Assembly (NCBI RefSeq): GCF_988243305.1
Contig: NZ_OZ547136.1
DNA: 64,000 nt
Direction: 5' to 3' (one strand)
Numbering within the stretch: position 1 is the stretch's first letter; every line of letters begins with the position of its first letter. Made by a program: the position numbers and the translations under genes. Below are positions 1-38,328 of this stretch, piece by piece. The notes under the pieces were generated by a model. It made no database searches, was not told the DNA's origin, and saw only the letters and a program-made list of their open reading frames with translations.

Positions 1-19
1 ACTACCATTTGTTCTTTTT

Positions 20-733: not shown

Positions 734-818
734 CTTAATCTCCAGTTTTAGCCGCTCATCACTTTAGTTTTCTGTCTGAGGGTTCATGCTGTACCCAGTT
801 GTAGGTGATGACTCCAAC

Positions 819-1516: not shown

Positions 1517-1753
1517 GCAAGCACCTTAAAATCACCATCATACACTAAATCAGTAAGTTGGCAGCATTACCAGAAAATGATAAGGTAAACATTGAAAAGC
1601 AGCCGACTGATGACTGTTTTTTATAGTTGCATTTTTATTTTTTGTTATTTTCATTTATATTCCCTTACTTGTCGTTTAAAATTCTTCTATATAACAGGAA
1701 GAGGTAACCATAGAATGAACGTTTATTTTCCTGTATCAGAACAGCCATAACTT

Positions 1754-3179: not shown

Positions 3180-3231
3180 TTGTCGGGAGGAATATCAATG
3201 CTTCCGTTAATTTTTACTGGCTGATAAAGTT

Positions 3232-3891
3232 TTGTCTGCTGAATCTTTATACGGAATTCCTTTCAGTATGCGTACACGAATTGACTATCTGGCGGATAAA
3301 TACTGTTTTACAGAACGGAACGAATCCCCCCGTCTTCGCCGGCAGTGGCAGGATGTTCTGGAGGAGTGCCGGCAGACAGAGGCCGGGCCAGAAGAACGGT
3401 TGCGTATTGCACTGCTGAATGTGGATTACGTCACCAGTTTTGAACTGCCTTTTCGCTTGCTGCTTACCCGTACACCGCAATTGATTGCCGCGCTGCGTGA
3501 AGAATGGGGCATCAGCCAGAAAAATGTGGTGTTTAACGATAAACGGTTTGGCTGCGTGTACAGCCTGAAGGCCAGCCTTTCTGGTGTGCCGGATACATAC
3601 CGGTATCATCTGTCTCACCGTATTCGTCGCGTGGTTGGGAATGAAAACACATCATTGCCATATCAGCAGGTTGCCCGGGAAGTGAAAGCGCCCCGTGAAC
3701 GGCTGAAGTATGCACTGGAGGCGGGTTTGCTGGTGACTGCACTGGACGGCCTGTTCTGGTTTGGCAGTCAGCGTATTGCGGCTGATGTTCTGAGGCTGAG
3801 AAAGGCCGGAATGCCGGTGGTGACCACGACCGTGGAGGTGCACGATAACCTGACGGGAACAACCCGCAAAGTACCGGCATACCATCTCTGA
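3232..3891 (+). CDS. hypothetical island protein
   Basis: 219-aa ORF, GC-normal; no family recognised. Confidence 0.4.
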   Translation: MSAESLYGIPFSMRTRIDYLADKYCFTERNESPRLRRQWQDVLEECRQTEAGPEERLRIALLNVDYVTSFELPFRLLLTRTPQLIAALREEWGISQKNVVFNDKRFGCVYSLKASLSGVPDTYRYHLSHRIRRVVGNENTSLPYQQVAREVKAPRERLKYALEAGLLVTALDGLFWFGSQRIAADVLRLRKAGMPVVTTTVEVHDNLTGTTRKVPAYHL

Positions 3892-3986
3892 TACAACCAT
3901 CAGGGGGAATATTGCTCTGGCAGCAGCAGTATGACATTCTTTATACTTTATCCCCGTGCCTGAAAACATGTGCTAAGGAAACGGGA

Positions 3987-4220
3987 ATGGCAAGGTCCGA
4001 TTATGATATTATCAATCTGTCTCTGGAACATGAACTGAATGAGTGGCTGGCAGAGAGAGGTTATGCCGGACTGGTGGATAACCGGAATCGCCTGGCAGAA
4101 GTTGTTACCCGCAAATTGCAGGACAGCTTTTATATAAACGTTTCCAGGGATGCGCTGAACACGGCATACAGTGAACACCCGGAGTGGTTTTCTGGGCTTG
4201 TCTCCGGGGATGAGAATTAA
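3987..4220 (+). CDS. small hypothetical protein
   Basis: Internal ATG (MARSDYDIINL) preceded by aaggaaa Shine-Dalgarno; 77 aa. Confidence 0.35.
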   Translation: MARSDYDIINLSLEHELNEWLAERGYAGLVDNRNRLAEVVTRKLQDSFYINVSRDALNTAYSEHPEWFSGLVSGDEN

Positions 4221-4272
4221 TAAGTGGATTATGCTGCTATCAGGTAGTGTGATTGCCGGCAGGGATTTCGTT

Positions 4273-4464
4273 TTATTCTGTTTCTTCCCGGGGTTCGGGT
4301 TTGAATTTTCCCAGAAAGTTGTACATCGGTTGCATGCAGGGATGCGGATAGCCGTCCCGCATAAACACCACCCGGGTTTCCTCAACACTGGTCAGGGTGA
4401 CAAGCGCACCATGATCGTCTTTGTATCGCTGATTGACTTTCGGTAATGGAACATCTTCTGACAT
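4273..4464 (-). CDS. small hypothetical protein
   Basis: 63-aa ORF; no family recognised. Confidence 0.25.
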   Translation of the reverse strand: MSEDVPLPKVNQRYKDDHGALVTLTSVEETRVVFMRDGYPHPCMQPMYNFLGKFKPEPREETE

Positions 4465-5051
4465 AAATTTTAGTACGGTAACAGTTAACTAAATTTTCAT
4501 GTGGTAGCACTGAATCAGGAGACTGCGTTTCCTGATGTGCGCTGTTAATTTTCTGTTTTTACGAAACATTTTCCCCTTCTTCCTGTGTATTTTATTGCGC
4601 TCCTCCTTTCATGTCCTTCCCATATCCTGAAACTCACTTAAATACTGTTGAATCGTCAAACATTGCAACTTTCAATGACTGAAATCAAAAATTGCTATTT
4701 TTTAAGCTAACCAACTGTATTAAAAGCATTCAGTGGAATAATTTTCTGCACTTTTCCAGTAATTATGGTTATAAATTTTGTAATGTGCTGTTTTTGCGAT
4801 ATATGGCAGAATAAAGAACTGTTCATTTGTGTTATATCGATCGATAAATCTGTCATGTTGCTGTAGTTCAGATCATTATTCTATAATGATCAAAATTAAG
4901 TCAATTCTGGCTGGTTTGTTACTCAGCATTCTGGTACCGGTTGATGCGGGTAAATACCGGAAGGGCGGTAGCGTGCCATCGCAAAACATGGTGGGAGGTA
5001 TCGTCAGGAGGCTGGTGATTGTTGGTATGACATGAATAAAAGGTTTTTCGT

Positions 5052-6185
5052 TTGACTGGAAAATTATGTTGCAGGAACGAGAGGACTGAGGAACAAAGCT
5101 TATTCCGGCGCTGTCCGTCCTTGCTGTCACTGACACTGATGTCTGCTTTATTATCGCCTTTATCTCTTCAGGCAGCGGATGTCCGGCGTAGCGGAGATGA
5201 AGCATTTATCATTCAGCAGCAGCGTCAGGAAGCCCTTGAGCAACAACTGACGCCTTCAGCCCCTGATGTTCGCCTTTCTGCACCTGGCTCTTTTGCCCAT
5301 AAGATTAATTTTCCTGTTGAAACGCCCTGTTTTCAGATTAAACAGACGGAACTGAAGGGGGCTGATGCGTTACCACACTGGCTGCCTTTACAAAAAATCG
5401 CCAACGGGGCGGTCGGGCATTGCCTGGGGGCGAAAGGAATTAATCTGCTGATGAGTACATTGCAGAACCGTCTGGTCGATCATGGTTATGTCACCACCCG
5501 TGTTCTGGCACCTTCGCAGGATTTAAAAAGCGGTATCCTCCGGCTGGTCATTATTCCCGGTGTTGTGCGACATGTGCGTCTGACACCGGACAGTGATGAC
5601 TATATTCAGTTGTATTCCTCATTCCCGGCACACGAAGGTTCTCTGCTGGATTTACGGGACATTGAGCAGGGGCTGGATTTAGGTAACAGCCGGATACAGG
5701 GACAACATACTGAGCTGAATGCAACCAGTGGAAATCTGTCTACACAGAATGCGCAACTGAGTGCCGGTACGCTTTCCGCCCGGACTGCCGGGCAGTTCAG
5801 CAGTAATGGCGGTACGATAAATGCCGACACACTGCAGATATCGGCACAAAGCCTGTCAAATCGTAAAGGCAGTCTGATTCAGACGGGAACAGGGGATTTT
5901 TCGCTGAGTCTGCCGGGAAGCGTGGATAACCGGGAAGGGCTGCTTGCGGCAAATGGCGCGGTGCGTCTGGATGCACTGAGCCTTGATAATCGCAAGGGGA
6001 AAGTGCAGGCGGAGCAGTCACCCTCCCTTCAGAAATCCCCGCCCACGTTTCTGAAACCGTTTGTGGCTGGTGTCTGTGCGGCATTGCTGGCGGTCAGCGT
6101 GGCTATTCCGGGATGGCAGTTTCTGACACAGCCATCACCGGAGGAGCAGCATTTTACCTGGGGGAATGGTTGTAAAAAGCAGTGA
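5052..6185 (+). pseudogene. Two-partner-secretion remnant: TpsB (CdiB/ShlB/FhaC-like) N-terminal POTRA-like segment fused in frame to a hemagglutinin-type repeat fragment (CdiA/TpsA-like); far shorter than an intact TpsB or TpsA
   Basis: N-terminal part resembles TpsB transporters ([27 protein letters not shown]); C-terminal part is Ser/Gly/Asn/Leu-rich repeat text typical of filamentous hemagglutinin/CdiA; 377 aa total. Confidence 0.5.
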
Positions 6186-6425
6186 AAACAGTAAATACAG
6201 AGTATCGTGATGAATTAGTGCTCAGGGGCTACCAGTATTCAATAACCAGCGTATCGGCATCGCATTCCTGTAATTCTGGTATTGACTGTTATGACTAAAT
6301 TCAATGTATATATGGCAGGCAGAAATATGTTAACAGTCCCGGAGTTGTGGAAAATCCTCCGGAGCTAATATCGGGAGTGCCTTAACAATTTTCCGTAAGT
6401 TAAATGATAATTTCTGAGTGAGAAT

Positions 6426-9107
6426 ATGGTCACGATTTGTGTTGACGGTGAAAATAAGACTCATAAAATTACCGACTGGACGCTGTGGGCTGGAAATGAC
6501 GACAGAGAGGTTATGCTGACCTGTCATTTTCGCAGCGGGAGAAAATATACTCGTCCGCTTTCTGTATGTCAGATAACGCCAACTGTAAATTTGCGAAATG
6601 TTTTCCTCGAAAGGAAAGGGAACGCTGTAACATCCCGGGCTGAACTGGTTATTATATATGGTGATAAATATGCTGCTGTTTATTACCGCGAGGGTGAACG
6701 ACCCTACATCATGAAAACGACCGGCCTTGACTTTCAACAGTGTTCAGCATTTACAGAGCATGCCGTGTTTAATTACTTGTGTAGGGTGGCTAATGAACGT
6801 ATTTTTTATGCCCGTGGTAATAACAGAAATATCGATGAGAATATCCTTAGGCAGATAAAGAAAATAGTTCCTCATCCGGATACCGCCTTGCATGCATACT
6901 GTTCAGGACAGAGTAAAAAACGTGATTCGCCATGGGGTTTGATTTTTCCGTTTGGTCTTAATGAAAGTCAGTTGCTGGCTGTCAAACGGGCATTTTCCTC
7001 ACAGATTTCAGTTATTGAAGGACCACCTGGAACAGGTAAAACACAGACTATACTCAATATTGTTGCTAATATATTAATTCAGAATAAAACAGTGGCAATT
7101 TTGTCCAATAATAACTCAGCTGTCAGTAATGTTTATGAAAAGATGGACAAACAGCAACTGGGATATGTGATGGCACGACTGGGGAGTACGGAGAACAGGC
7201 AACAGTTTTTTTCAACGTCGATTTCGCGTTCTGAGGAAGTCTTACCTGACTCACCGTCTGCAAATGCGATTGATGATGTACTTCAACAAGTGAAAAAACA
7301 CCTGAATGCCATTAACCAGGTCGCTTCGTTAAAAGCAGAAATTAATGAGCTGAATATTGAGTATAAATACCTGCAGCAATGGCAGAGTCAGAATCTTCGA
7401 CCGGAGGAGCTTTTTTCTCACAAATACCGATTTTCCTCACAAAAAACAACCGACCTGATGGCTTATATTCATTACCTTTCTGACAGGCGGATTGGATTCA
7501 GAAACAGAATTGATTTGTTGTTAAACTTCATGATACTGAAAGTCAAACCATTGATGATTCCGGAGAGAAGGCTGGCGCTATTTACTTCTCTTCAGCTTTC
7601 TTATTATGAAAAAAATATCCGGGAAAAACAAATTTCTCTGAATGAATATGAGGAAGTATTTAAAAAATCTGATTTTAAAATTTTACTGGGGCGCCTGACA
7701 TCATGGTCTATGCTTTATTTAAAGCAACATCTGCGAAGAAATGTTTCAACAAGAAGTTCATTCTCGGCAGAGACATACAGGGATGAATTTGACCGTTTTA
7801 TAAAGCGTTTTCCGATTATTGGTAGCAGTACGCATTCGATTATTAACTCTATCGGCAAGGGGGCCCTTCTTGATTATGTTATTATTGATGAAGCCTCGCA
7901 GCAGGATATTGTTCCGGGCATTCTGGGACTGGGATGTGCCCGTAATGTAATCGTTGTAGGGGATCGTAAGCAACTTCCACATGTTCCTGTATTACTCCCG
8001 AACAGCCCATCTCCACCGGCAGAATACTATAATTGTGAGAAATATAGTCTACTTGATTCGGTTTGTATGTTGTTCAGGAACATGGTGCCAGTAACCCTTC
8101 TTAAAGAGCATTATCGTTGTCATCCTAAAATCATTCAATTTTGTAATAAGCAGTTTTATGATAATGCTCTGATACCGTTAACGGTTGATTCCGGTGAAGC
8201 CTCATTATCTCTGGTCATCACGGCAAAAGGAAACCATACCCGTAATTTTTCAAATCTCAGGGAGCTTGAATCTCTGGAAGGTCATTACTGGGATGAAGAA
8301 AGTAGCAGGGGATACATTGCCCCATATAATGCACAGGTTAATCTGGCTGAAAAAGTGCTGCCTGCTGATTTTGTGAAATCGACGGTGCATAAATTTCAGG
8401 GACGGGAGTGCGATGAAATTGTGTTTTCCACTGTGCTGGATAAGAAGCGCAGCAGCCAGCACAGTCGGAACATCGCGTTTGTTGATAATCCTGAACTGGT
8501 GAATGTCGCTGTTTCAAGGGCCCGAAATAAATTTACGCTGGTGACTGGTAATGATGTATTTGAACGCCACGCTGGACATATTGCGGCGCTGATTCGTTAC
8601 ATCAAATACTACGCTGATGACGGAGAGATTTTCGAGAGCCCGGTCATATCAGCATTTGATTTGCTGTACAGTGAGTATGACAAATCACTGGAACGACTGA
8701 ATAGTAGATTGAATTCAAATGATTCACACTTTAAGTCAGAACAGATTGTGGCCTGCCTGTTGCGGGATATCCTGTCGCAGGATAGTTATCGGAGTATGAT
8801 GTTTCATTCACAAATAGCGCTGAATCAGTTGGTGTTGCTGGAGCGGGGGGATTTTACACACCGTGAACAGTTATTCATGCGTAACCGGGCCAGTTGTGAC
8901 TTTGTTGTTTACTATAAGGTCGGGAAGACTCCATTAGGGGTTATTGAAGTGGATGGAGGTTATCATCTGACCAGTGTTCAGGCTGAACGTGATGAACTTA
9001 AAAACAGTATACTGAAGAAATGCGGCCTGCCATTGCTAAGATTACGTACTATAGACAGTGATATAGAAGGGAAGTTGGGAGCGTTTCTGTCAGGCCTGAC
9101 AGGCTAA
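6426..9107 (+). CDS. Superfamily-1 (Upf1/DNA2-like, AAA_11/AAA_12 type) helicase with unknown ~170-aa N-terminal domain and a C-terminal restriction-endonuclease-like domain; candidate phage-defence helicase-nuclease
   Basis: Walker A GPPGTGKT (nt 7020..7043), Walker B VIIDEASQ, helicase motifs VVGDRKQLPHV, KFQGRECDEIVFS, VAVSRARNKFTLV; C-terminal CDFVVYY...IEVDGGYH...ERDELK resembles a PD-(D/E)xK-type fold. Confidence 0.8.
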   Translation: MVTICVDGENKTHKITDWTLWAGNDDREVMLTCHFRSGRKYTRPLSVCQITPTVNLRNVFLERKGNAVTSRAELVIIYGDKYAAVYYREGERPYIMKTTGLDFQQCSAFTEHAVFNYLCRVANERIFYARGNNRNIDENILRQIKKIVPHPDTALHAYCSGQSKKRDSPWGLIFPFGLNESQLLAVKRAFSSQISVIEGPPGTGKTQTILNIVANILIQNKTVAILSNNNSAVSNVYEKMDKQQLGYVMARLGSTENRQQFFSTSISRSEEVLPDSPSANAIDDVLQQVKKHLNAINQVASLKAEINELNIEYKYLQQWQSQNLRPEELFSHKYRFSSQKTTDLMAYIHYLSDRRIGFRNRIDLLLNFMILKVKPLMIPERRLALFTSLQLSYYEKNIREKQISLNEYEEVFKKSDFKILLGRLTSWSMLYLKQHLRRNVSTRSSFSAETYRDEFDRFIKRFPIIGSSTHSIINSIGKGALLDYVIIDEASQQDIVPGILGLGCARNVIVVGDRKQLPHVPVLLPNSPSPPAEYYNCEKYSLLDSVCMLFRNMVPVTLLKEHYRCHPKIIQFCNKQFYDNALIPLTVDSGEASLSLVITAKGNHTRNFSNLRELESLEGHYWDEESSRGYIAPYNAQVNLAEKVLPADFVKSTVHKFQGRECDEIVFSTVLDKKRSSQHSRNIAFVDNPELVNVAVSRARNKFTLVTGNDVFERHAGHIAALIRYIKYYADDGEIFESPVISAFDLLYSEYDKSLERLNSRLNSNDSHFKSEQIVACLLRDILSQDSYRSMMFHSQIALNQLVLLERGDFTHREQLFMRNRASCDFVVYYKVGKTPLGVIEVDGGYHLTSVQAERDELKNSILKKCGLPLLRLRTIDSDIEGKLGAFLSGLTG

Positions 9108-9607
9108 AATCTGAATAAAAAATATTGCAGCGGGAGGTCTCAAACCTGATTTGGTCATGTGCCACACACAATTGTACGAACCCCATGGACACAGGCTTCT
9201 TTGTTTTGGTTACATCAACGTACGTATTCCTGATACATATAAAAATAAGTGCTATTGCTCAAAGCTAACAGGGAATGTTTCTGTTGAATAATTCCTTAGT
9301 GAATAAACTTTATCAGGGGGTAATTCTATTACAGTGAATACTTCCTGCAAAATGATATTTGAATTGTTCACCATCTGCATCATATTTTCTTATTTACAAG
9401 TTGAAAGGATAGTATATGTTGAAAATGCATGGATTTTCCAGATGTGTTACCAGTAAGAAGCAGGTGGATAAAGGATGTGATAACAAATCCAACAACCAGG
9501 TTAATATCTGAAGATTTTTGTTGTTATTATTTATCCCCAAAGCGGTGAGTTATTAATGAAGTTTGCCTGAATGTATAAACAGAATTATTCGACATAAAGC
9601 CAGGAAA

Positions 9608-28189: not shown

Positions 28190-31036
28190 ATGAAACGACA
28201 TCTGAACACCAGCTACAGGCTGGTATGGAATCACATTACAGGCACCCTGGTGGTGGCTTCCGAACTGGCACGCTCACGGGGAAAAGGCGCCGGTGTGGCG
28301 GTTGCTCTGTCTCTTGCTGCTGTCACGTCAGTCCCGGCACTGGCTGCTGACACGGTTGTACAGGCGGGAGAAACCGTGAACGGCGGAACACTGACAAATC
28401 ATGACAACCAGATTGTCCTCGGTACGGCCAACGGAATGACCATCAGTACCGGGCTGGAGTATGGGCCGGATAACGAGGCCAATACCGGCGGGCAATGGAT
28501 ACAAAATGGCGGTATCGCCAACAACACTACTGTCACCGGTGGTGGTCTTCAGAGAGTGAATGCCGGAGGAAGCGTTTCAGACACGGTTATCAGTGCCGGA
28601 GGCGGACAGAGCCTTCAGGGGCAGGCAGTGAACACCACTCTGAACGGCGGTGAGCAGTGGGTACATGAAGGCGGGATTGCAACGGGTACCGTCATTAATG
28701 AGAAGGGCTGGCAGGCCGTCAAATCCGGTGCAATGGCAACCGACACGGTTGTGAATACCGGCGCGGAAGGAGGACCGGATGCGGAAAATGGTGATACCGG
28801 GCAGACCGTCTACGGAGATGCCGTACGCACCACCATCAATAAAAATGGTCGTCAGATTGTGGCTGCTGAAGGAACGGCAAATACCACTGTGGTTTATGCC
28901 GGCGGCGACCAGACTGTACATGGTCACGCACTGGATACCACGCTGAATGGGGGGTACCAGTATGTGCACAACGGAGGTACAGCATCTGACACTGTTGTTA
29001 ACAGTGACGGCTGGCAGATTATCAAGGAAGGTGGTCTGGCGGATTTCACCACCGTTAACCAGAAAGGTAAACTGCAGGTGAACGCCGGTGGTACAGCCAC
29101 GAATGTCACCCTGACGCAGGGCGGCGCACTGGTCACCAGTACGGCGGCAACCGTCACCGGCAGCAACCGTCTGGGCAATTTCACTGTGGAAAACGGTAAT
29201 GCTGACGGTGTTGTTCTGGAGTCCGGTGGTCGCCTGGATGTACTGGAGGGCCATTCAGCCTGGAAAACACTGGTGGATGACGGCGGTACCCTGGCAGTGT
29301 CTGCCGGTGGTAAGGCAACAGATGTCACCATGACATCCGGTGGTGCCCTGATTGCAGACAGTGGTGCCACTGTTGAGGGGACCAATGCCAGCGGTAAGTT
29401 CAGTATTGATGGCATATCCGGTCAGGCCAGCGGCCTGCTGCTGGAAAATGGCGGCAGCTTTACGGTTAATGCCGGAGGACTGGCCAGCAACACCACTGTC
29501 GGACATCGTGGAACACTGACGCTGGCCGCCGGGGGAAGTCTGAGTGGCAGAACACAGCTCAGTAAAGGCGCCAGTATGGTACTGAATGGTGATGTGGTCA
29601 GTACCGGCGATATTGTTAACGCCGGAGAGATTCGCTTTGATAATCAGACGACACCGGATGCCGCACTGAGCCGTGCTGTTGCAAAAGGCGACTCCCCGGT
29701 AACGTTCCATAAACTGACCACCAGTAACCTCACCGGTCAGGGTGGCACCATCAATATGCGTGTTCGCCTTGATGGCAGCAATGCCTCTGACCAGCTGGTG
29801 ATTAATGGTGGTCAGGCAACCGGCAAAACCTGGCTTGCGTTTACAAATGTCGGAAACAGTAACCTCGGGGTGGCAACCTCCGGACAGGGTATCCGGGTTG
29901 TGGATGCACAGAATGGTGCCACCACAGAAGAAGGTGCGTTTGCCCTGAGTCGCCCGCTTCAGGCCGGCGCCTTTAACTACACCCTGAACCGTGACAGCGA
30001 TGAAGACTGGTACCTGCGCAGTGAAAATGCTTATCGTGCTGAAGTCCCCCTGTATGCCTCCATGCTGACACAGGCAATGGACTATGACCGGATTCTGGCA
30101 GGCTCCCGCAGCCATCAGAGCGGTGTAAGCGGTGAAAATAACAGCGTCCGTCTCAGCATTCAGGGCGGTCATCTCGGGCACGATAACAACGGTGGTATTG
30201 CCCGTGGGGCCACGCCGGAAAGCAACGGCAGCTATGGCTTCGTCCGTCTGGAGGGTGACCTGCTCAGAACAGAGGTTGCCGGTATGTCACTGACGACAGG
30301 AGTGTATGGTGCTGCAGGCCATTCTTCCGTTGATGTTAAGGATGATGACGGCTCCCGCGCCGGCACGGTCCGGGATGATGCCGGCAGCCTGGGCGGATAC
30401 CTGCATCTGGTACACACGTCCTCCGGCCTGTGGGCTGACATTGTGGCACAGGGAACCCGCCACAGCATGAAAGCGTCATCGGACAATAACGACTTCCGCG
30501 CCCGGGGCTGGGGCTGGCTGGGCTCACTGGAAACCGGTCTGCCCTTCAGTATCACTGACAACCTGATGCTGGAGCCACAACTGCAGTACACCTGGCAGGG
30601 ACTCTCCCTGGATGACGGCCAGGATAACGCCGGTTATGTGAAGTTCGGGCATGGCAGTGCACAACATGTGCGTGCCGGCTTCCGTCTGGGCAGCCACAAC
30701 GATATGAACTTTGGTAAAGGCACCTCATCCCGTGACACCCTGCACGACAGTGCAAAACACAGTGTGCGTGAACTGCCGGTGAACTGGTGGGTACAGCCTT
30801 CTGTTATCCGCACCTTCAGCTCCCGGGGAGACATGAGCATGGGTACAGCCGCAGCCGGCAGTAACATGACGTTCTCACCGTCCCGGAATGGCACGTCACT
30901 GGACCTGCAGGCCGGACTGGAAGCCCGTGTCCGGGAAAATATCACCCTGGGCGTTCAGGCCGGTTATGCCCACAGTGTCAGCGGCAGCAGCGCTGAAGGT
31001 TATAACGGTCAGGCCACACTGAACGTGACTTTCTGA
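28190..31036 (+). CDS. flu: Antigen 43 self-associating autotransporter adhesin (948-aa allele)
   Basis: Extended signal peptide MKRHLNTSYRLVWNHITGTLVVASELARSRGKGAG, beta-helix passenger repeats, C-terminal beta-barrel ending ...GQATLNVTF. Confidence 0.9.
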   Translation: MKRHLNTSYRLVWNHITGTLVVASELARSRGKGAGVAVALSLAAVTSVPALAADTVVQAGETVNGGTLTNHDNQIVLGTANGMTISTGLEYGPDNEANTGGQWIQNGGIANNTTVTGGGLQRVNAGGSVSDTVISAGGGQSLQGQAVNTTLNGGEQWVHEGGIATGTVINEKGWQAVKSGAMATDTVVNTGAEGGPDAENGDTGQTVYGDAVRTTINKNGRQIVAAEGTANTTVVYAGGDQTVHGHALDTTLNGGYQYVHNGGTASDTVVNSDGWQIIKEGGLADFTTVNQKGKLQVNAGGTATNVTLTQGGALVTSTAATVTGSNRLGNFTVENGNADGVVLESGGRLDVLEGHSAWKTLVDDGGTLAVSAGGKATDVTMTSGGALIADSGATVEGTNASGKFSIDGISGQASGLLLENGGSFTVNAGGLASNTTVGHRGTLTLAAGGSLSGRTQLSKGASMVLNGDVVSTGDIVNAGEIRFDNQTTPDAALSRAVAKGDSPVTFHKLTTSNLTGQGGTINMRVRLDGSNASDQLVINGGQATGKTWLAFTNVGNSNLGVATSGQGIRVVDAQNGATTEEGAFALSRPLQAGAFNYTLNRDSDEDWYLRSENAYRAEVPLYASMLTQAMDYDRILAGSRSHQSGVSGENNSVRLSIQGGHLGHDNNGGIARGATPESNGSYGFVRLEGDLLRTEVAGMSLTTGVYGAAGHSSVDVKDDDGSRAGTVRDDAGSLGGYLHLVHTSSGLWADIVAQGTRHSMKASSDNNDFRARGWGWLGSLETGLPFSITDNLMLEPQLQYTWQGLSLDDGQDNAGYVKFGHGSAQHVRAGFRLGSHNDMNFGKGTSSRDTLHDSAKHSVRELPVNWWVQPSVIRTFSSRGDMSMGTAAAGSNMTFSPSRNGTSLDLQAGLEARVRENITLGVQAGYAHSVSGSSAEGYNGQATLNVTF

Positions 31037-31366
31037 TAATCAGGTCACTCCCCTTCAGGCCCCGGTCATTATGACCGGGGCCTTTTACTTTCAGGGATCA
31101 ACAGATATGCCGGGTTGTGCATCACGTTTATTGCCCGAAGCCCCTTTTGCTGCCAAATGGCATCTGAATTGATCACAGTCTGGCCGGTTATTACCCGATG
31201 GGGATATTGGGTGATCTCCTTCCATGAAAATACGCAGCTCACCAGTGAAGGGCTTCTCAGACAATAAACGTCATTCATTTCATTTGTCAGGCCGCGTCTT
31301 CTCCGGGAGACGTGGCTTTTTCATTTATTACACCAGTAAATCTTAACCACCGATAAGGAGCAAATT

Positions 31367-32188
31367 ATGCGACTAGCCAGTCGTTTTGGTTATGCTGCAA
31401 ACCAGATACGCCGTGACCGTCCGCTGACACACGAAGAACTGATGCACTATGTTCCCAGTATTTTCGGTAAAGACCGGCATACTTCCCGCAGTAAACGGTA
31501 TGCGTACATTCCCACCATCACCGTGCTGGAAAGTCTGCAGCGGGAAGGCTTTCAGCCATTCTTCGCCTGCCAGACCTGTGTGCGCGACCCGGGCCGCCGG
31601 GGATACACAAAACACATGCTGCGCCTGCGCCGTAACGGAGAGATAAACGGAGAACATGTCCCTGAAATTATTCTGCTCAACTCTCATGACGGTACCTCCA
31701 GCTACCAGATGCTGCCGGGTTACTTCAGGTTCGTCTGCCAGAACGGATGCGTCTGTGGTCAGTCTCTGGGGGAAGTGCGTGTTCCGCACCGGGGAAATGT
31801 GGTGGACAGAGTCATTGAAGGGGCTTACGAGGTGGTGGGCGTGTTTGACCGGATAGAGGAGAAGCGTGATGCCATGCAGTCGCTGATTCTGCCGCCACCG
31901 GCACGCCAGGCGCTGGCACAGGCGGCACTGACTTACCGTTATGGTGACGAACATCGGCCCGTCACCACCGCCGACATTCTGACGCCACGACGCCGGGAGG
32001 ATTACGGTAAGGACCTGTGGAGTACTTATCAGACCATCCAGGAGAATATGCTGAAAGGCGGGATTTCCGGTCGCAGTGCAAAAGGAAAACGTATCCACAC
32101 CCGTGCCATTCACAGCATCGACACCGATATTAAGCTCAACCGCGCATTGTGGGTAATGGCAGAAACGCTGCTGGAGAGCCTGCGCTGA
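31367..32188 (+). CDS. DUF932-family protein (YfjQ/YafZ-like)
   Basis: 273 aa, the size of YafZ/YfjQ; conserved position after Ag43 in CP4-type islands. Confidence 0.7.
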   Translation: MRLASRFGYAANQIRRDRPLTHEELMHYVPSIFGKDRHTSRSKRYAYIPTITVLESLQREGFQPFFACQTCVRDPGRRGYTKHMLRLRRNGEINGEHVPEIILLNSHDGTSSYQMLPGYFRFVCQNGCVCGQSLGEVRVPHRGNVVDRVIEGAYEVVGVFDRIEEKRDAMQSLILPPPARQALAQAALTYRYGDEHRPVTTADILTPRRREDYGKDLWSTYQTIQENMLKGGISGRSAKGKRIHTRAIHSIDTDIKLNRALWVMAETLLESLR

Positions 32189-32433
32189 TGCAGCATGTCC
32201 CTGAAGGCGTGATTCAGGCACCAGAATCACCCGACGCCCCGGAGGCGCTGCCGGGGTGTCGTTCCATTTCTGATGATGACCTGTGCGCCTGGTGTACCCG
32301 TCTGCTTTACCGTCCCGGAGAAATCAGTCTGTGCAGACTGAGTACAGGCAATGGCATCTGGCCATCCGTCTGTGACCGGAACGGTTACGCGTACGGCTGT
32401 CCGGAATTTCAGCCGAATATCATTCATCCCTGA
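32188..32433 (+). CDS. DUF905-like small protein (YkfF-like)
   Basis: 81-aa ORF whose start overlaps the upstream stop (tgATG); assignment by position and size. Confidence 0.45.
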   Translation: MQHVPEGVIQAPESPDAPEALPGCRSISDDDLCAWCTRLLYRPGEISLCRLSTGNGIWPSVCDRNGYAYGCPEFQPNIIHP

Positions 32434-32526
32434 TATTACCGGGTCTCACGGTCAGTGATGAACGTGATGTTGCCAGCTCCCGACCTTTACTCCCTCTCAT
32501 TTATTCACATTACAAGGATTTCATAC

Positions 32527-33000
32527 ATGAAAACATTGTCTCAGAACACCACCTCTTCGGCCTGTGCACCGGAGACTGGCCTGCAACAACTGGTTGCCAC
32601 CATAGTCCCTGATGAACAGCGCATCAGCTTCTGGCCGCAGCATTTTGGCCTCATTCCACAGTGGGTGACCCTGGAGCCCCGTGTCTTCGGCTGGATGGAC
32701 CGTCTGTGCGAAAACTACTGCGGTGGTATCTGGAATCTGTACACCCTGAACAACGGCGGGGCATTTATGGCCCCTGAACCGGATGACTATGATGACGAAA
32801 CATGGGTACTGTTCAATGCCATGAACGGTAACCGCGCTGAAATGAGCCCGGAAGCCGCCGGCATTGCCGCCTGTCTGATGACGTACAGTCATCACGCCTG
32901 CCGTACGGAGTGTTATGCCATGACGGTTCATTATTACCGTCTGCGGGATTACGCCCTGCAGCATCCGGAATGCAGCGCCATTATGCGCATTATTGACTGA
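32527..33000 (+). CDS. Antirestriction protein (KlcA/ArdB-like; YfjX/YafX family)
   Basis: 157 aa from MKTLSQNTTS; family recalled from CP4 prophage homologues. Confidence 0.7.
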   Translation: MKTLSQNTTSSACAPETGLQQLVATIVPDEQRISFWPQHFGLIPQWVTLEPRVFGWMDRLCENYCGGIWNLYTLNNGGAFMAPEPDDYDDETWVLFNAMNGNRAEMSPEAAGIAACLMTYSHHACRTECYAMTVHYYRLRDYALQHPECSAIMRIID

Positions 33001-33015
33001 AAGGGGGCAGGAACA

Positions 33016-33492
33016 ATGCAACAGCTTTCCTTTCTGCCCGGAGAGATGACGCCCGGCGAGCGCAGTCTCATTCTGCGGGCCCTGAAAACCCTGGACCGCC
33101 ATCTTCATGAACCCGGCGTGGCCTTCACCTCCACCCGTGCGGCACGGGAATGGCTGATTCTGAACATGGCGGGACTGGAGCGTGAAGAGTTCCGGGTGCT
33201 GTATCTGAATAACCAGAATCAGCTGATTGCCGGTGAAACCCTCTTCACCGGCACCATCAACCGCACGGAAGTCCATCCCCGGGAAGTGATTAAACGCGCC
33301 CTGTATCACAATGCCGCAGCCGTGGTGCTGGCACACAATCACCCGTCCGGTGAAGTCACCCCCAGTAAGGCAGACCGCCTTATCACGGAACGTCTGGTAC
33401 AGGCACTGGGCCTGGTGGATATCCGGGTGCCGGACCATCTGATAGTCGGTGGCAGCCAGGTTTTCTCCTTTGCCGAACATGGTCTGCTTTAA
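33016..33492 (+). CDS. RadC-like JAB-domain protein (YeeS/YkfG/YfjY family)
   Basis: JAMM-like motif HNHPSGEVTPSKAD; 158 aa. Confidence 0.85.
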   Translation: MQQLSFLPGEMTPGERSLILRALKTLDRHLHEPGVAFTSTRAAREWLILNMAGLEREEFRVLYLNNQNQLIAGETLFTGTINRTEVHPREVIKRALYHNAAAVVLAHNHPSGEVTPSKADRLITERLVQALGLVDIRVPDHLIVGGSQVFSFAEHGLL

Positions 33493-33554
33493 CCCGCCAC
33501 AACCACATCACACCTGTTTTCACTTTTATCTTCTGTCTTCAGAGGTATCCCATT

Positions 33555-33776
33555 ATGAAAATCATCACCCGTGGTGAAGCCATGCGTATTCACCAACAGC
33601 ATCCTGCATCCCGTCTTTTTCCGTTCTGTACCGGCAAATACCGCTGGCACGGCAGCACTGAAACGTATACCGGTCGTGAAGTGCAGGATATTCCCGGTGT
33701 GCTGGCCGTGTTTGCTGAACGCCGTAAGGACAGTTTTGGCCCGTATGTCCGGCTGATGAGCGTCACTCTGAACTGA
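33555..33776 (+). CDS. DUF987 protein (YeeT-like)
   Basis: 73 aa, position between RadC-like and toxin-antitoxin genes. Confidence 0.65.
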   Translation: MKIITRGEAMRIHQQHPASRLFPFCTGKYRWHGSTETYTGREVQDIPGVLAVFAERRKDSFGPYVRLMSVTLN

Positions 33777-33794
33777 GTCAGTAAGGGCATTCTG

Positions 33795-34439
33795 ATGAGC
33801 AGAATTATCACCACCACCGTGTATACACTGCATGAGCTATCCTCCACCGCACAGGAAAAAGCCCGCGACTGGTACCGTCAGCATCATGCTGACAGCAACT
33901 GGTATGAAAACGTGTATGAGGACTTCAGGGAGGTCTGTGGCATTTTCGGAATTGACCTCCGCCAGCGCGTTTTCCGGCTCAGCAACGGCAGGTTTATGGA
34001 AGAGCCGTGCATCTGGTTCAGCGGATTCTGCAGTCAGGGGGACGGAGCCTGTTTTGAAGGGCGCTGGCACTGGCAGCCAGCGACACCCCGGAAAATCAGG
34101 GAATATGCCCCTCAGGACCGTGAGCTTCATCGTATCGCGGATGCCCTGCAGGCGGTACAGAAGCGTAACTTCTGGCAGTTACAGGCTGAAATCAGTCACC
34201 GGGGACGTTACTGCCATCCGTACAGCATGGATATCACCGTCACCCGGAACAGTCCGACTGGTCAGGCACTGACAGCCGATGCGGAAGCCGCTGTCAGCGA
34301 AGCCCTGCGCGACCTGGCCTTCTGGCTGTACCGCCAGCTGGAAAACGAGTACGACTGGCTGACCTCAGACGCCGCTGTAGATGAGGCCATTCACATCAAT
34401 GCATATACCTTCACCGAAGCCGGTCTCCACGCCGGCTGA
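33795..34439 (+). CDS. hypothetical protein (214 aa) inserted between the yeeT-like and cbeA genes
   Basis: Clean ORF with Trp/Cys-rich composition; not part of the K-12 CP4-44 gene order. Confidence 0.5.
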   Translation: MSRIITTTVYTLHELSSTAQEKARDWYRQHHADSNWYENVYEDFREVCGIFGIDLRQRVFRLSNGRFMEEPCIWFSGFCSQGDGACFEGRWHWQPATPRKIREYAPQDRELHRIADALQAVQKRNFWQLQAEISHRGRYCHPYSMDITVTRNSPTGQALTADAEAAVSEALRDLAFWLYRQLENEYDWLTSDAAVDEAIHINAYTFTEAGLHAG

Positions 34440-34488
34440 CCTGTCATCGTTAAACTATCATTCACCAATTTTTTGTGAGGATTTGATC

Positions 34489-34866
34489 GTGTCAGACACA
34501 CTCCCCGGGACAACACTTCCCGACGACAATCACGACCGCCCCTGGTGGGGGCTGCCCTGCACCGTGACGCCCTGTTTCGGGGCACGTCTGGTGCAGGAGG
34601 GTAACCGGTTGCATTACCTTGCAGACCGCACCGGTATCAGAGGCCGGTTCAGCAATGCGGATGCATACCATCTGGACCAGGCTTTTCCACTGCTGATGAA
34701 ACAACTGGAACTCATGCTCACCAGCGGTGAACTGAATCCCCGCCATCAGCATACCGTCACGCTGTATGCGAAAGGGCTGACCTGCGAAGCTGATACCCTT
34801 GGCAGTTGTGGTTACGTTTATCTGGCTGTTTATCCGACACCGGCAGCACCCGCAATCACCGTATAA
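34489..34866 (+). CDS. cbeA: CbeA/YeeU-family type IV antitoxin (cytoskeleton bundling-enhancing factor)
   Basis: GTG start; SDTLPGTTLPDDNHDRPWWGLPCTVTPCFGARLVQEGNRLHYLADR matches YeeU. Confidence 0.85.
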   Translation: MSDTLPGTTLPDDNHDRPWWGLPCTVTPCFGARLVQEGNRLHYLADRTGIRGRFSNADAYHLDQAFPLLMKQLELMLTSGELNPRHQHTVTLYAKGLTCEADTLGSCGYVYLAVYPTPAAPAITV

Positions 34867-34912
34867 CCCCGGATATCTCCCCTTTATCACCACCTGTTAC
34901 AGAGAACTTAAG

Positions 34913-35287
34913 ATGAATACATTACCCGACACTCACGTACGGGAGGCATCGGGCTGCCCGTCTCCCGTCACCATCTGGCAGACACTGCTCACCCGACTGC
35001 TGGACCAGCACTACGGCCTCACGCTGAATGACACACCGTTCGCTGATGAACGTGTGATTGAGCAGCATATTGAGGCAGGTATTTCACTGTGTGATGCGGT
35101 GAACTTTCTCGTGGAAAAATACGCGCTGGTGCGTACCGACCAGCCGGGATTCAGCGCCTGTACCCGCTCTCAGTTAATAAACAGCATCGATATCCTCCGG
35201 GCTCGCAGGGCGACCGGCCTGATGACCCGCGACAATTACAGAACGGTAAATAACATAACCCTGGGTAAGCATCCGGAGGCGAAATGA
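34913..35287 (+). CDS. cbtA: CbtA/YeeV-family type IV toxin (inhibitor of FtsZ/MreB polymerisation)
   Basis: 124 aa; LLDQHYGLTLNDTPFADERVIEQHIEAGISLCDAVNFLVEKYALVRTDQPGFSACTRSQLINSIDILRARRATGLMTRDNYRTVNNITLGKHPEAK matches YeeV. Confidence 0.85.
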   Translation: MNTLPDTHVREASGCPSPVTIWQTLLTRLLDQHYGLTLNDTPFADERVIEQHIEAGISLCDAVNFLVEKYALVRTDQPGFSACTRSQLINSIDILRARRATGLMTRDNYRTVNNITLGKHPEAK

Positions 35288-35775
35288 TGAAACTGGCCCT
35301 GACGCTGGAAGCCGACAGCGTTAACGTACAGGCACTGAACATGGGGCGCATTGTCGTTGACGTCGATGGTATTGAGCTTGCTGAACTGATTAACGTGGTC
35401 TGCGATAACGGTCACTCCCTTCGTGTTGTTGATGAATCTGACCGAGCCTCAACAGACTGCACGCCACCATTTGCTGCCCTGACCGGCATACGCTGCAGTA
35501 CCGCGCATATCACGGCAAAAGACAACGCCTGGCTGTACTCGCTGTCGCATCAGACGAATGACACCGGCGAATCAGAATGGATTCATTTTACAGGCAGCGG
35601 ATATCTGTTACGTACCGATGCGTGGTCATACCCGGTTCTGCGGCTTAAACGCCTGGGCCTGTCAAAAACGTTCCGCCGCCTGGTTGTCACACTCATCCGA
35701 CGTTATGGCGTCAGTCTCATTCATCTGGATGCCAGCGCTGAATGCCTGCCGGGTTTACCCACTTTCGACTGGTAA
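35284..35775 (+). CDS. YeeW-like protein
   Basis: 163-aa ORF overlapping the cbtA stop, conserved position. Confidence 0.65.
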   Translation: MMKLALTLEADSVNVQALNMGRIVVDVDGIELAELINVVCDNGHSLRVVDESDRASTDCTPPFAALTGIRCSTAHITAKDNAWLYSLSHQTNDTGESEWIHFTGSGYLLRTDAWSYPVLRLKRLGLSKTFRRLVVTLIRRYGVSLIHLDASAECLPGLPTFDW

Positions 35776-35777
35776 CC

Positions 35778-35984
35778 ATGAACAACATGAAATCATTAAC
35801 CACGGAAACCGCACTGGATATTCTGATTGCGTGGCTGCAGGACAATATCGACTGCGAATCGGGAATTATCTTTGACAACGATGAGGATAAAACAGATTCG
35901 GCAGCACTGTTGCCCTGTATCGAACAGGCCAGGGAGGGTATCCGTACCCTGTGCCAACTGCAGCTTCTGCACCAGAACCGATGA
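35778..35984 (+). CDS. small DUF957-like protein (tentative)
   Basis: 68-aa ORF from MNNMKSLTTETALDILIAWLQDNIDCESG. Confidence 0.35.
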   Translation: MNNMKSLTTETALDILIAWLQDNIDCESGIIFDNDEDKTDSAALLPCIEQAREGIRTLCQLQLLHQNR

Positions 35985-36073
35985 GTCTTACTCATTCACT
36001 CACCAGACTTCATTCCAATGACGTCAGCCTGAACAGGGCTGGCGTTTTCGTTTATAAACCAAAAGGAAAAACG

Positions 36074-36919
36074 ATGATGTCAGATATCACAATCTCCCGC
36101 CTGGAAGTGGTCAACGGACATACGGACATTATCTGCTCCACCTCAGTCAGCCACATTCTGGCTGTGCGAAAGACTACACTGCTGCAAATCGACACACTTA
36201 TCCGGCAACTGACTGAAATATCAGCAATGACAGAAAGTATTGGCGGTAAAACCGCACTGGACTGGGCCATGAAACAGGATTTTCGCTGCGGCTGCTGGCT
36301 CATGGATAAACCTGATACAGCAATGAAAGCTATCACCCGCAATCTCGATCGCGAAATCTGGCGTGACCTGATGCAATGCTCCGGGATGCTTTCCTTAATG
36401 GATGCACAGGCCCGTGATACATGGTACCGATCACTGGAGTACGATAATTTTCCGGAAATCAGTGAAGAGAATATTCTGAGTACGTTTGAGCAGCTACACC
36501 AGAATAAGGATGAAGTGTTTGAGCGAGGAGTGATCAACCTCTTCAGAGGGTTGAGCTGGAATTACAAAACCAATTGCCCCTGTAAATTTGGCAATAAAAT
36601 TATCGTCAACAATCTGGTGAGGTGGGACCGGTGGGGATTGCATCTTATCACCGGGCAACAGGCAGATAGACTTGCCGACCTGGAAAGAATGCTGCATCTG
36701 TTCAGCGGCAAACCGATCCCCGACAACAGGGAAAACATAACTATTCATCTGGACGAACATATCCGGTCTCTTCAGGGAAAAGAATGCTATGAAGATGAGA
36801 TGTTCATTATTAAATACTTTAAGAAGGGCTCTGCGCACATCACGTTCAGGAAGCCAGAACTGGTTGACAGACTGAATGATATTATCGCAAAACACTATCC
36901 TGATATGCTGGCAGTATAG
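36074..36919 (+). CDS. DUF4942-like protein (tentative family), last gene of the island before serX
   Basis: 281 aa from MMSDITISRLEVVNGHTDII; family assigned from memory of CP4-type island ends. Confidence 0.55.
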   Translation: MMSDITISRLEVVNGHTDIICSTSVSHILAVRKTTLLQIDTLIRQLTEISAMTESIGGKTALDWAMKQDFRCGCWLMDKPDTAMKAITRNLDREIWRDLMQCSGMLSLMDAQARDTWYRSLEYDNFPEISEENILSTFEQLHQNKDEVFERGVINLFRGLSWNYKTNCPCKFGNKIIVNNLVRWDRWGLHLITGQQADRLADLERMLHLFSGKPIPDNRENITIHLDEHIRSLQGKECYEDEMFIIKYFKKGSAHITFRKPELVDRLNDIIAKHYPDMLAV

Positions 36920-37029
36920 CTTTGCCAGTATGCTCAAAGATCGGAAATTGTCCGATAAGATATGATCGTGGGGCATATAAACCGGTTTCAGATGGCATAC
37001 CCGGTGGCATACTGTCTGGAAGGATAAAT

Positions 37030-37062
37030 AAAAAAGCGCATGTTAAACAATAACATGCGCTT
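37030..37062 (-). terminator. Rho-independent terminator of serX
   Basis: Hairpin gcgcatgtta...taacatgcgc with a U-tract on the minus strand immediately 3' of the tRNA. Confidence 0.6.
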
Positions 37063-37068
37063 GTAATC

Positions 37069-37156
37069 TGGCGGTGAGGGGGGGATTCGAACCCCCGATA
37101 CGTTGCCGTATACACACTTTCCAGGCGTGCTCCTTCAGCCACTCGGACACCTCACC
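37069..37156 (-). tRNA. serX: tRNA-Ser (anticodon GGA), 88 nt with long variable arm and CCA end
   Basis: Reverse complement reads GGTGAGGTGTCCGAGTGGCTGAAGGAGCACGCCTGGAAAGTGTGTATACGGCAACGTATCGGGGGTTCGAATCCCCCCCTCACCGCCA. Confidence 0.95.
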
Positions 37157-37350
37157 AAATTGTTGTTCCTGTCTTGCTGGAACGGGCGCTAATTTAGGGA
37201 AATCATGACCTGAGGTCAACAAACTTTTTTAAAAAATCGCGCGTTTATTCAAACTTCAATCAATATGCAGTTTTAATAAGCGAAATCTGCTTTTTTTGCC
37301 ACCGACCACGGATTTGTTATGCTGGTGGCTTTTGTAGATCATAACGATAA

Positions 37351-38328
<978 letters not shown>

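What the first reader, a model, noticed from the sequence alone, without database searches (positions are those of the whole stretch)
36920..37156. Island meets serX at its integrase-distal end
Only about 150 bp, including the native serX terminator hairpin, separate the last island gene (DUF4942-like) from the tRNA 3' end. No integrase is adjacent to the tRNA; the tRNA-proximal genes are those that normally sit at the far end of CP4-type islands. The integrase and the second att repeat must lie beyond the left window edge, or the island has been rearranged or fixed.
Basis: inference. Interest (0 to 1): 0.35.

Follow-up and report, generated by a model that had tools for sequence, protein, structure and literature searches.

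The report
Known serX island, normal end layout
This is the right-hand end of a well-known mobile island of E. coli (the SRL-PAI / OI-48 / PAI-serX type), which always meets the serX tRNA gene at the end far from its integrase, so the layout is ordinary and not a sign of rearrangement.

Summary
The description is accurate. tRNA-Ser(GGA) lies at 37069-37156 (-). The DUF4942 gene ends at 36919, leaving a 149-bp spacer that holds a strong hairpin terminator. No integrase lies nearby or anywhere in the window.

One detail is wrong. The hairpin is not the native serX terminator; it belongs to the island. The native terminator sits at the other end of the island, next to the integrase. The same DUF4942 end and hairpin are joined to serW in 282 genomes and to serX in 1151 of 5426 complete E. 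coli genomes.

In the closest colinear genome (99.8% identity), a P4-family integrase and the only other copy of TGGCGGTGAGGGGG, the last 14 nt of serX, lie about 39 kb beyond the window's left edge. This bounds an island of about 75 kb.

This repeat, the integrase and the layout are already published for OI-43/OI-48 of O157:H7 and for the Shigella SRL island, both of which excise precisely. K-12 prophage CP4-6 has the same geometry; CP4-57 has the opposite one.

The spacer is best read as one arm of attP. It carries paired TGGCATAC repeats that recur just upstream of the integrase gene. The finding is ordinary and of low interest.

The parts
37069..37156 (-). serX, the tRNA-Ser(GGA) gene. It is intact. 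Its body is chromosomal, and its last 14 nt lie within the recombination core.
   Evidence: ARAGORN. Rfam tRNA, 53.8 bits. Annotated tRNA-Ser in near-identical genomes.
37069..37082 (.). 14-bp core / direct repeat TGGCGGTGAGGGGG, the last 14 nt of serX including the CCA end. This is the crossover region of the tRNA-side att site.
   Evidence: It is the only copy in the window. The second copy sits 160 bp upstream of the integrase ATG in CH4796. The sequence is identical to the direct repeats published for OI-43/OI-48 and SRL-PAI (PMC3064760).
36920..37068 (.). 149-bp island-borne spacer, read as the integrase-distal arm of attP. It lies between the DUF4942 stop codon and the core.
   Evidence: Absent from the empty K-12 site. 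Present in 1355 genomes. Joined to serX in 1151 genomes and to serW in 282.
37024..37062 (-). Island-borne rho-independent terminator that now ends the serX transcript: stem-loop 37062-37034 and T-rich tail 37033-37024.
   Evidence: Terminator scan. RNA fold: dG -17.5 kcal/mol, z = -5.5. The stem-loop (37034-37062) and tail are invariant in four island variants apart from the last stem base (37062) in GF60. It differs from the native serX and serW terminators.
36993..37012 (+). Two direct TGGCATAC octamers 12 bp apart. They are candidate arm-type integrase binding sites (inferred).
   Evidence: The same pair, with the same spacing and orientation, lies 22-41 bp upstream of the integrase ATG (L004 2410 and 2422). 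The octamers are invariant in 4 + 4 variants while the 4-nt spacers between them vary. The integrase has an Arm-DNA-bind_3 domain.
36948..36957 (+). TTGTCCGATA, a second motif shared with the integrase-side arm. Its role is unknown.
   Evidence: Shared k-mer analysis: 16 shared 8-mers against 0.95 expected, reached in 0 of 2000 shuffles. Partly conserved in the variants.
36077..36919 (+). The last island gene, encoding a DUF4942 protein.
   Evidence: Pfam PF13708, E = 2.8e-70. RefSeq annotation of near-identical genomes.
26945..35984 (+). Conserved integrase-distal backbone module: GTPase (YeeP/YkfA-like), Ag43, DUF932, antirestriction protein, RadC/JAB, DUF987, CbeA antitoxin, CbtA toxin, DUF5983 and DUF957.
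   Evidence: Pfam hits and annotation. The same gene order occurs in K-12 CP4-6 and CP4-57.
1..37068 (.). The part of the island inside the window. The island continues about 39 kb beyond the left edge. Cargo here includes the aerobactin genes iucABCD-iutA, an ibrAB-like pair and several IS elements.
   Evidence: Colinear at 99.8% identity with CH4796. The left end of the island was located in L002/L004.
37157..38328 (+). Chromosomal flank: a serX promoter-like site on the minus strand (37219-37191) and ghrA (37390-38328).
   Evidence: Promoter scan. Annotation. The sequence matches K-12 from the tRNA onward.

Best explanation
The window holds the tRNA-side junction of a roughly 75-kb integrative island of the SRL-PAI / OI-43/48 (SpLE1) / PAI-serX type.

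The island's P4-family tyrosine integrase recombines a 14-bp core (TGGCGGTGAGGGGG) that is identical to the last 14 nt of serX and of its paralogue serW. In this family the integrase gene lies on the side of the attP core that, after integration, becomes joined to the displaced native 3' flank. That flank carries the cryptic ser'X 14-mer and the native terminator.

The opposite, integrase-distal end becomes joined to the body of the tRNA gene. This end consists of the toxin-antitoxin, DUF5983, DUF957 and DUF4942 genes plus a 149-bp arm. Joining it rebuilds an intact serX and gives it an island-borne terminator. The 149-bp spacer is therefore one arm of attP. It carries the replacement terminator and probably the arm-type integrase sites (paired TGGCATAC).

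Shown here: the sequence layout, both junctions, the island-borne origin of the hairpin, and the prevalence of the layout.
Taken from the literature, for near-identical integrases and repeats: precise integrase-dependent excision, and integration at serX or serW.
Inferred: that the window's own genome carries the same left end, and that the TGGCATAC pairs bind the integrase.
For: - The junction DUF4942 | spacer | serX | ghrA is present in 1151 of 5426 complete E. coli genomes. The same end and spacer are joined to serW in 282 genomes.
- The closest colinear genome, CH4796 (99.8% identity), reads: phoH, DUF2726, native serX flank and terminator, TGGCGGTGAGGGGG, 160 bp, integrase (400 aa, intact), then a YfjI-family protein and a YfjJ-domain protein.
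- Strain 190693 has the same left junction, as do three more divergent variants.
- Only two copies of the 14-mer exist across the whole region, one at each end, in direct orientation.
- The native flank in K-12 matches the integrase-end flank and not the window's spacer. The native serW terminator resembles the native serX terminator and not the window's hairpin.
- The integrase has Arm-DNA-bind_3, Phage_int_M and Phage_integrase domains. It is 34% identical over its full length to the P4-like IntA of CP4-57. Its DNA is 99.8% identical to copies in O157:H7 genomes.
- PMC3064760 reports that OI-43/48 are flanked by perfect 14-bp repeats TGGCGGTGAGGGGG, the last 14 bp of serW/serX and identical to those of SRL-PAI. 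It places the integrase (Z1559) at the 5' end and the last gene (Z1664) at the 3' end, and measures complete excision in roughly 1e-3 to 1e-4 of cells.
- PMC7545054 reports that SRL-PAI excision requires int, and lists PAI-serX in CFT073, UTI89, RS218, IHE3034 and UM146. PMC2297512 reports that SRL Int integrates the island at serX and serW.
- Paired TGGCATAC repeats occur on both arms.
Against: - The left end is not in the window, so its presence in this particular genome is inferred from relatives. About 7% fewer genomes carry the integrase (1267) than the right-end spacer (1355), so some lineages have lost it.
- The island is heavily decayed by IS elements and pseudogenes, which may lower its mobility.
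- The arm-site assignment rests on repetition and on conservation among sequences that are only 6-10% divergent. That is weak evidence.
- The primary SRL-PAI papers (Luck 2001; Turner 2001 and 2004) could not be read here.
Confidence: 0.9

Rival explanations
1. The island was rearranged, for example by an internal inversion or IS-mediated shuffling, so that an integrase originally next to the tRNA was moved to the far end.
For: The island is full of IS elements and gene fragments. P4-like integrases such as CP4-57 IntA do sit next to their tRNA or tmRNA gene.
Against: - The same geometry occurs in 1151 serX and 282 serW insertions across many lineages.
- The native serX flank and terminator abut the core at the integrase end, and the two cores are direct repeats.
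- Islands with this geometry excise precisely (PMC3064760).
- An inversion would have left inverted cores, and the native flank would be next to the tRNA.
Confidence: 0.02
2. In the window's own strain the island is a fixed remnant. The integrase and/or the left repeat has been deleted, and the tRNA-side junction is all that remains of the att system.
For: The left end cannot be seen in the window. About 90 more genomes carry the right-end spacer than the integrase (1355 against 1267). PMC3064760 describes one strain that lost the upstream junction. The window has at least one IS insertion that its nearest relative lacks.
Against: The two nearest relatives with the same right end (CH4796 and 190693) both keep an intact integrase gene and a perfect repeat. 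The window is colinear with CH4796 right up to its left edge.
Confidence: 0.07
3. The region is a tandem composite. The tRNA-proximal module (GTPase, Ag43 and the toxin-antitoxin to DUF4942 genes) is a separate CP4-44-like element without an integrase, and the far-left integrase belongs to a different island.
For: The region is mosaic, with IS boundaries between modules, for example IS66 and IS3 fragments at 25.4-26.2 kb just before the GTPase gene.
Against: - There is no internal copy of the core, even allowing one mismatch, anywhere in the roughly 75 kb.
- The order integrase, YfjI, YfjJ, cargo, GTPase, DUF932, antirestriction, RadC, DUF987, antitoxin, toxin is that of single islands such as CP4-57.
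- Both arms share the paired TGGCATAC motif, which links the two ends as one attP.
Confidence: 0.01

Closest known systems
OI-43 / OI-48 of E. coli O157:H7 EDL933 (SpLE1 of Sakai), the tellurite-resistance/urease islands at serW and serX
   Same: - The same 14-bp direct repeat, TGGCGGTGAGGGGG.
- The same integrase: 99.8% DNA identity to copies in O157:H7 genomes.
- The same right-end spacer and DUF4942 end, 97.2% identical.
- The same geometry, with the integrase at the 5' end beside the cryptic ser'X and the last gene beside the intact tRNA (PMC3064760).
   Different: The cargo differs. Here it is aerobactin, an ibrAB-like pair and sugar-metabolism genes, rather than ter, ure and iha. The size also differs, about 75 kb here. 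Excision has not been tested for this variant.
[quoted passage not shown]
   Same: The 14-bp direct repeats are identical. Its integrase is reported as 99% identical to that of OI-43/48. It undergoes int-dependent precise excision and integrates at serX or serW (PMC3064760, PMC7545054, PMC2297512).
   Different: The cargo is multidrug resistance and fec genes. I could not compare the sequences directly, because the Shigella record is not in the collections and the primary papers are not held.
PAI-serX of ExPEC strains (CFT073, UTI89, RS218, IHE3034, UM146)
   Same: The same insertion site. The same DUF4942 | serX | ghrA junction at 99.2% identity in UTI89, IHE3034 and UM146. The published island coordinates end at serX (PMC7545054).
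   Different: Those islands carry S/F1C fimbriae and salmochelin. The window carries aerobactin instead.
Cryptic prophage CP4-6 of E. coli K-12 (at thrW)
   Same: The geometry is the same, in mirror image. The tRNA 3' end is followed directly by the CbtA-family toxin/antitoxin, DUF987, RadC, antirestriction, DUF932 and GTPase genes, and the integrase (intF) is at the far end, transcribed inward.
   Different: The integrase is unrelated: IntF shows no meaningful similarity and has a different family profile. The tRNA target is also different.
   Same: The internal gene order is the same: integrase, YfjI, YfjJ, cargo, GTPase, DUF932, antirestriction, RadC, DUF987, antitoxin, toxin. The integrase is P4-family and 34% identical.
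   Different: Here intA is immediately downstream of the intact ssrA gene, and the toxin-antitoxin end abuts the 14-bp pseudo-copy (psaA). The core therefore has the opposite orientation relative to int.

Membership tests
SRL-PAI / OI-43/48-type serX/serW integrative island | Flanked by direct repeats of TGGCGGTGAGGGGG, the last 14 nt of serX/serW. | tested here: met
   The right copy is at window 37069-37082. The left copy is outside the window. It is present, as the only other copy, in the colinear genome CH4796 and in strain 190693. The sequence is identical to the published repeat.
SRL-PAI / OI-43/48-type serX/serW integrative island | A P4-family integrase nearly identical to that of OI-43/48 and SRL-PAI. 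| tested here: met
   Tested in the nearest relatives, not in the window itself. The protein is 400 aa with Arm-DNA-bind_3, Phage_int_M and Phage_integrase domains. Its DNA is 99.8% identical to copies in O157:H7 genomes. The window itself contains no integrase.
SRL-PAI / OI-43/48-type serX/serW integrative island | The integrase lies beside the displaced (cryptic) tRNA 3' fragment, and the integrase-distal end lies beside the intact tRNA. | tested here: met
   The window shows the integrase-distal end at the intact serX. Relatives show the native flank, core and integrase at the other end. This agrees with the figure legends and text of PMC3064760.
SRL-PAI / OI-43/48-type serX/serW integrative island | Uses both paralogous sites, serX and serW. 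| tested here: met
   The same right end is joined to ghrA-side serX in 1151 genomes and to infA-side serW in 282 genomes.
SRL-PAI / OI-43/48-type serX/serW integrative island | Integrase-dependent precise excision and integration. | not testable with these tools
   Known only from the literature for the O157 and Shigella islands. It needs PCR or long-read evidence in this strain.
CP4-57-type layout (integrase immediately downstream of the intact tRNA/tmRNA gene) | An integrase gene adjacent to the 3' end of the intact tRNA gene. | tested here: not met
   The gene next to serX encodes a DUF4942 protein. There is no integrase in the window. Compare K-12 ssrA-intA.
P4-like tyrosine integrases | An N-terminal arm-binding domain plus the central and catalytic tyrosine-recombinase domains, with full-length similarity to P4-type integrases. 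| tested here: met
   Pfam PF13356, PF22022 and PF00589. 34% identity over 400 aa to IntA of CP4-57. NCBIfam PRK09692 integrase domain scores 187 bits, below that model's curated cut-off of 434.
attP with arm-type integrase sites | Repeated short motifs on both arms flanking the core, bound by the integrase's N-terminal domain. | tested here: inconclusive
   Paired TGGCATAC repeats with 12-bp periodicity lie on both arms, in the same orientation, and are invariant in 8 variant sequences. Binding was not tested, and the divergence among the variants is low.

The most novel reading that the evidence does not exclude
The only element that may not already be described is the fine structure of attP for this integrase. 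Paired TGGCATAC octamers lie on both arms (window 36993-37012, and 22-41 bp upstream of the integrase ATG) and may be its arm-type binding sites. An island-encoded terminator, placed 6 nt past the core, replaces the native serX terminator and cuts serX off from its native RtT-like downstream repeats. If that is so, carrying the island could subtly change 3' processing or termination of tRNA-Ser(GGA).
Probability: 0.4. Interest if true: 0.15.

Novelty: already known. Interest (0 to 1): 0.1.

Why it matters
It matters little beyond correct annotation.

Genome annotators should not treat 'no integrase next to the tRNA' as a sign of a degenerate or rearranged island. For serX/serW islands, and for CP4-6 at thrW, the integrase is by design at the end that carries the displaced tRNA fragment.

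The practical points are these:
- The island's boundary on this side is the 14-bp core at 37069-37082.
- The hairpin next to serX is island DNA, not host DNA.
- The island in this lineage probably keeps everything needed in cis for excision, along with its integrase. This bears on how stable its aerobactin and Ag43 cargo is.

Tried and rejected
- I searched the window for a second copy of the serX 3' end: a 25-mer with up to 3 mismatches, the 14-mer with up to 1 mismatch, and blastn-short. None was found. The 18-nt inverted match at 36607-36624 to the serX 5' end region (E = 0.068) was judged to be chance.
- A tblastn search of the island integrase against the window gave no hit.
- I tested whether CP4-6 IntF is the same integrase family, which would have explained the shared geometry. 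It is not, so the geometry is not a family-specific trait.
- Rfam at a permissive threshold gave only sub-threshold chance hits on the spacer and the left junction (Atu_C9, MicC, Thr_leader, Plastid-psbl-rps4), all far below their gathering scores.
- I tried to read the primary SRL-PAI papers (PMC353151, PMC95444, PMC98729) and Williams 2002 (PMC100330). None is held, so statements about SRL-PAI rest on secondary citations.
- Several fetched loci (L002, L006, L015) never appeared in the Python sandbox. I re-fetched a smaller locus (L004) and used the built-in tools instead.

Full report
**What is at the coordinates**

The window is E. coli chromosome around serX. ARAGORN finds a single tRNA, tRNA-Ser(GGA), at 37069-37156 on the minus strand, and Rfam agrees. 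To its right lie ghrA, ycdX, ycdY, ycdZ and csgGFED, as in K-12.

To its left the last ORF (36077-36919, +) is a full-length DUF4942 protein (Pfam E = 2.8e-70). Upstream of it, in order of distance from it, come genes for DUF957, DUF5983, CbtA toxin, CbeA antitoxin, a hypothetical protein, DUF987, RadC/JAB, an antirestriction protein, a small hypothetical protein, DUF932, Ag43 and a GTPase.

Exactly 149 bp (36920-37068) separate the DUF4942 stop codon from the tRNA 3' end. Within that spacer is a 12-bp-stem hairpin followed by a T-run, at 37062-37024 on the tRNA strand. Its folding energy is -17.5 kcal/mol, z = -5.5 against shuffles.

No integrase lies next to the tRNA or anywhere in the window (tblastn; annotation of near-identical genomes). 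The window also has no second copy of the serX 3' end.

**Where the other end is**

The junction DUF4942 | serX | ghrA is common. It covers at least 80% of a 2.5-kb query in 1151 of 5426 complete E. coli genomes, including UTI89, IHE3034, UM146, NU14 and APEC O18.

The first 25 kb of the window match strain CH4796 at 99.8% identity, colinear except for one 1.3-kb IS. In that genome the sequence further left reads as follows:
- phoH
- a DUF2726 gene
- ...gaaaaaaaaagcccgtaccttcgtacgagctcttctttaaaga
- TGGCGGTGAGGGGG
- 160 bp
- an intact 400-aa tyrosine integrase transcribed into the island
- further on, genes for a YfjI-family protein and a YfjJ-domain protein

The 14-mer equals the last 14 nt of serX. 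It occurs exactly twice across the whole region, once at each end and in direct orientation, even when one mismatch is allowed. The repeats bound an island of about 75 kb. Its integrase end lies about 39 kb beyond the window's left edge.

Strain 190693 shares the window's right end at 99.5% identity. It has the same integrase (100% identical) and the same left junction, there next to dgcT. Three more divergent variants (93-96% identical integrase genes) have the same junction; in strain 2014C-4135 it lies next to ycdU.

**The hairpin is not native**

In K-12 the site is empty. There, serX is followed by ...tttaaagaagagctcgtacgaaagtacgggctttttttt on the tRNA strand, which is a different hairpin. 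The paralogue serW has a closely similar native terminator.

That native flank is what abuts the 14-mer at the integrase end of the island. The hairpin in the window (GCGCATGTTA...) is absent from K-12. It is nearly invariant in four island variants, and together with the DUF4942 end it is joined to serW, on the infA side, in 282 genomes.

So it travels with the island. It is the island's own terminator, placed 6 nt past the core, and after integration it terminates the rebuilt serX. This corrects the one factual error in the finding.

**How it works**

The integrase has the P4-type architecture: Arm-DNA-bind_3, Phage_int_M and Phage_integrase domains. It is 34% identical over its full length to IntA of CP4-57.

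Joining the two ends gives a reconstructed attP of about 320 bp between the DUF4942 stop codon and the integrase ATG. The core lies in the middle.

Each arm carries a pair of direct TGGCATAC octamers 12 bp apart, in the same orientation: window 36993 and 37005, and L004 2410 and 2422, the latter 22-41 bp upstream of the integrase ATG. The two arms share 16 8-mers against 0.95 expected, a count reached in 0 of 2000 shuffles. The octamers are invariant in all eight variant sequences, while the 4-nt spacers between them vary.

I read these as arm-type integrase sites. That is an inference, because the variants are only 6-10% divergent and no binding data exist here.

Recombination within the 14-bp core swaps the sequences downstream of serX. 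The integrase-distal arm, with its terminator, becomes joined to the tRNA body. The integrase-proximal arm becomes joined to the displaced native 3' flank, the 'cryptic ser'X'. That is why the integrase-distal genes are the ones next to the tRNA.

**Comparison with what is known**

This is published biology.

- Bielaszewska et al. 2011 (PMC3064760) report that OI-43 and OI-48 of O157:H7 EDL933 are flanked by perfect 14-bp direct repeats, TGGCGGTGAGGGGG. These are the last 14 bp of serW and serX and are identical to the repeats of the Shigella flexneri SRL-PAI.
- The same paper reports that each island has a P4-family integrase 99% identical to that of SRL-PAI. It places the integrase (Z1559) at the 5' end and the last gene (Z1664) at the 3' end, with intact and cryptic serX copies at the two ends. 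It measures complete site-specific excision in 1.8e-3 (OI-43) and 2.0e-4 (OI-48) of cells.
- The integrase region found here is 99.8% identical to copies in O157:H7 genomes, and the right-end spacer is 97.2% identical.
- A review (PMC7545054) lists PAI-serX in CFT073, UTI89, RS218, IHE3034 and UM146. It states that SRL-PAI excision requires int.
- PMC2297512 summarises that SRL Int integrates the island at serX and serW.

The geometry is not unique to this integrase. In K-12 CP4-6, thrW is followed directly by ykfI/yafW (CbtA/CbeA family), then DUF987, RadC, antirestriction, DUF932 and GTPase genes, and intF lies 33 kb away at the far end. IntF is an unrelated tyrosine recombinase.

There ssrA is followed directly by intA, and the toxin-antitoxin end abuts the 14-bp pseudo-copy psaA. 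All three islands share the same internal gene order starting from the integrase. They differ only in which att end carries the intact tRNA gene, that is, in the orientation of the core relative to int.

**Rivals**

- *Rearrangement.* Excluded by the direct repeats, by the native flank lying at the integrase end, and by the recurrence of the layout in more than 1,400 insertions at two loci.
- *Tandem composite.* Unlikely, because there is no internal core copy and both ends share the arm motif.
- *Fixed remnant.* The window's own strain may have lost its left end. This cannot be excluded from the window alone: about 7% fewer genomes carry the integrase than the right end. But the nearest relatives keep an intact integrase and a perfect repeat.

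**Verdict**

The interpretation 'integrase and second repeat lie beyond the left edge' is right. 'Rearranged or fixed' is not supported. The 'native terminator' detail is wrong.

Novelty: already known. Interest is low. The only small addition is the proposed attP anatomy, namely paired TGGCATAC arm repeats and an island-borne terminator. I could not check this against the primary SRL attP paper.

Noticed in passing
L003 (K-12 NC_000913.3) 14023-14584, i.e. record 1,097,022-1,097,583, just downstream of serX. Not in the window.: The empty K-12 site has three extra tandem units of about 181 bp. Each ends with the native terminator plus a 19-nt copy of the serX 3' end, so K-12 holds four copies of the 14-bp att core. 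Two of the units reach the Rfam RtT (RF00391) gathering score. RefSeq also annotates an 'RtT sRNA' at the left junction of an island-bearing strain (L008). In island carriers, serX is separated from these repeats.
   Followed up: partly
window about 20300-22950 (iucD), with the IS at about 20600-21950; second copy of the IS at about 13130-14440: Compared with CH4796, the window has a 1314-bp insertion inside iucD. It is an IS3-family element with a 296-aa transposase ORF at 20675-21565 (-), and its first 300 nt are 99% identical to the copy at 13132-13431. iucD is split: it starts at 20297, and the C-terminal 316-aa fragment is at 21998-22948. Aerobactin synthesis is therefore probably knocked out in this strain.
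   Followed up: partly
L002/L004 (CH4796), L014 (190693) and L009 (2014C-4135), left junctions: The chromosomal context on the integrase side differs between lineages. It is phoH plus a DUF2726 gene in CH4796 (no pgaABCD, dgcT or ycdU), dgcT in 190693, and ycdU in 2014C-4135. The region next to the displaced serX flank is therefore itself variable or prone to deletion.
   Followed up: no
window 36607-36624 (inside the DUF4942 gene): An 18-nt stretch, with one mismatch, is the reverse complement of the serX 5' end and upstream region (37148-37165). The blastn-short E-value is 0.068, so this is probably chance.
   Followed up: no
window 1-26200: The island cargo in the window includes an IS600 fragment and IS1F, a POTRA-domain protein with an 893-aa AAA protein (5052-9107), an ibrAB-like pair (PAPS reductase and IbrB-like, 9563-11283), a PerC-family regulator, an MFS transporter with iucABCD-iutA (14557-25149), and IS66 and IS3 fragments just before the GTPase-Ag43 backbone.
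   Followed up: partly
searches of the E. coli genome collection: Two places each for the right-end spacer and for the integrase fall on records classed as plasmids, for example NZ_OZ547091.1 (262 kb). They may be mis-classed chromosome fragments or real plasmid-borne copies.
   Followed up: no
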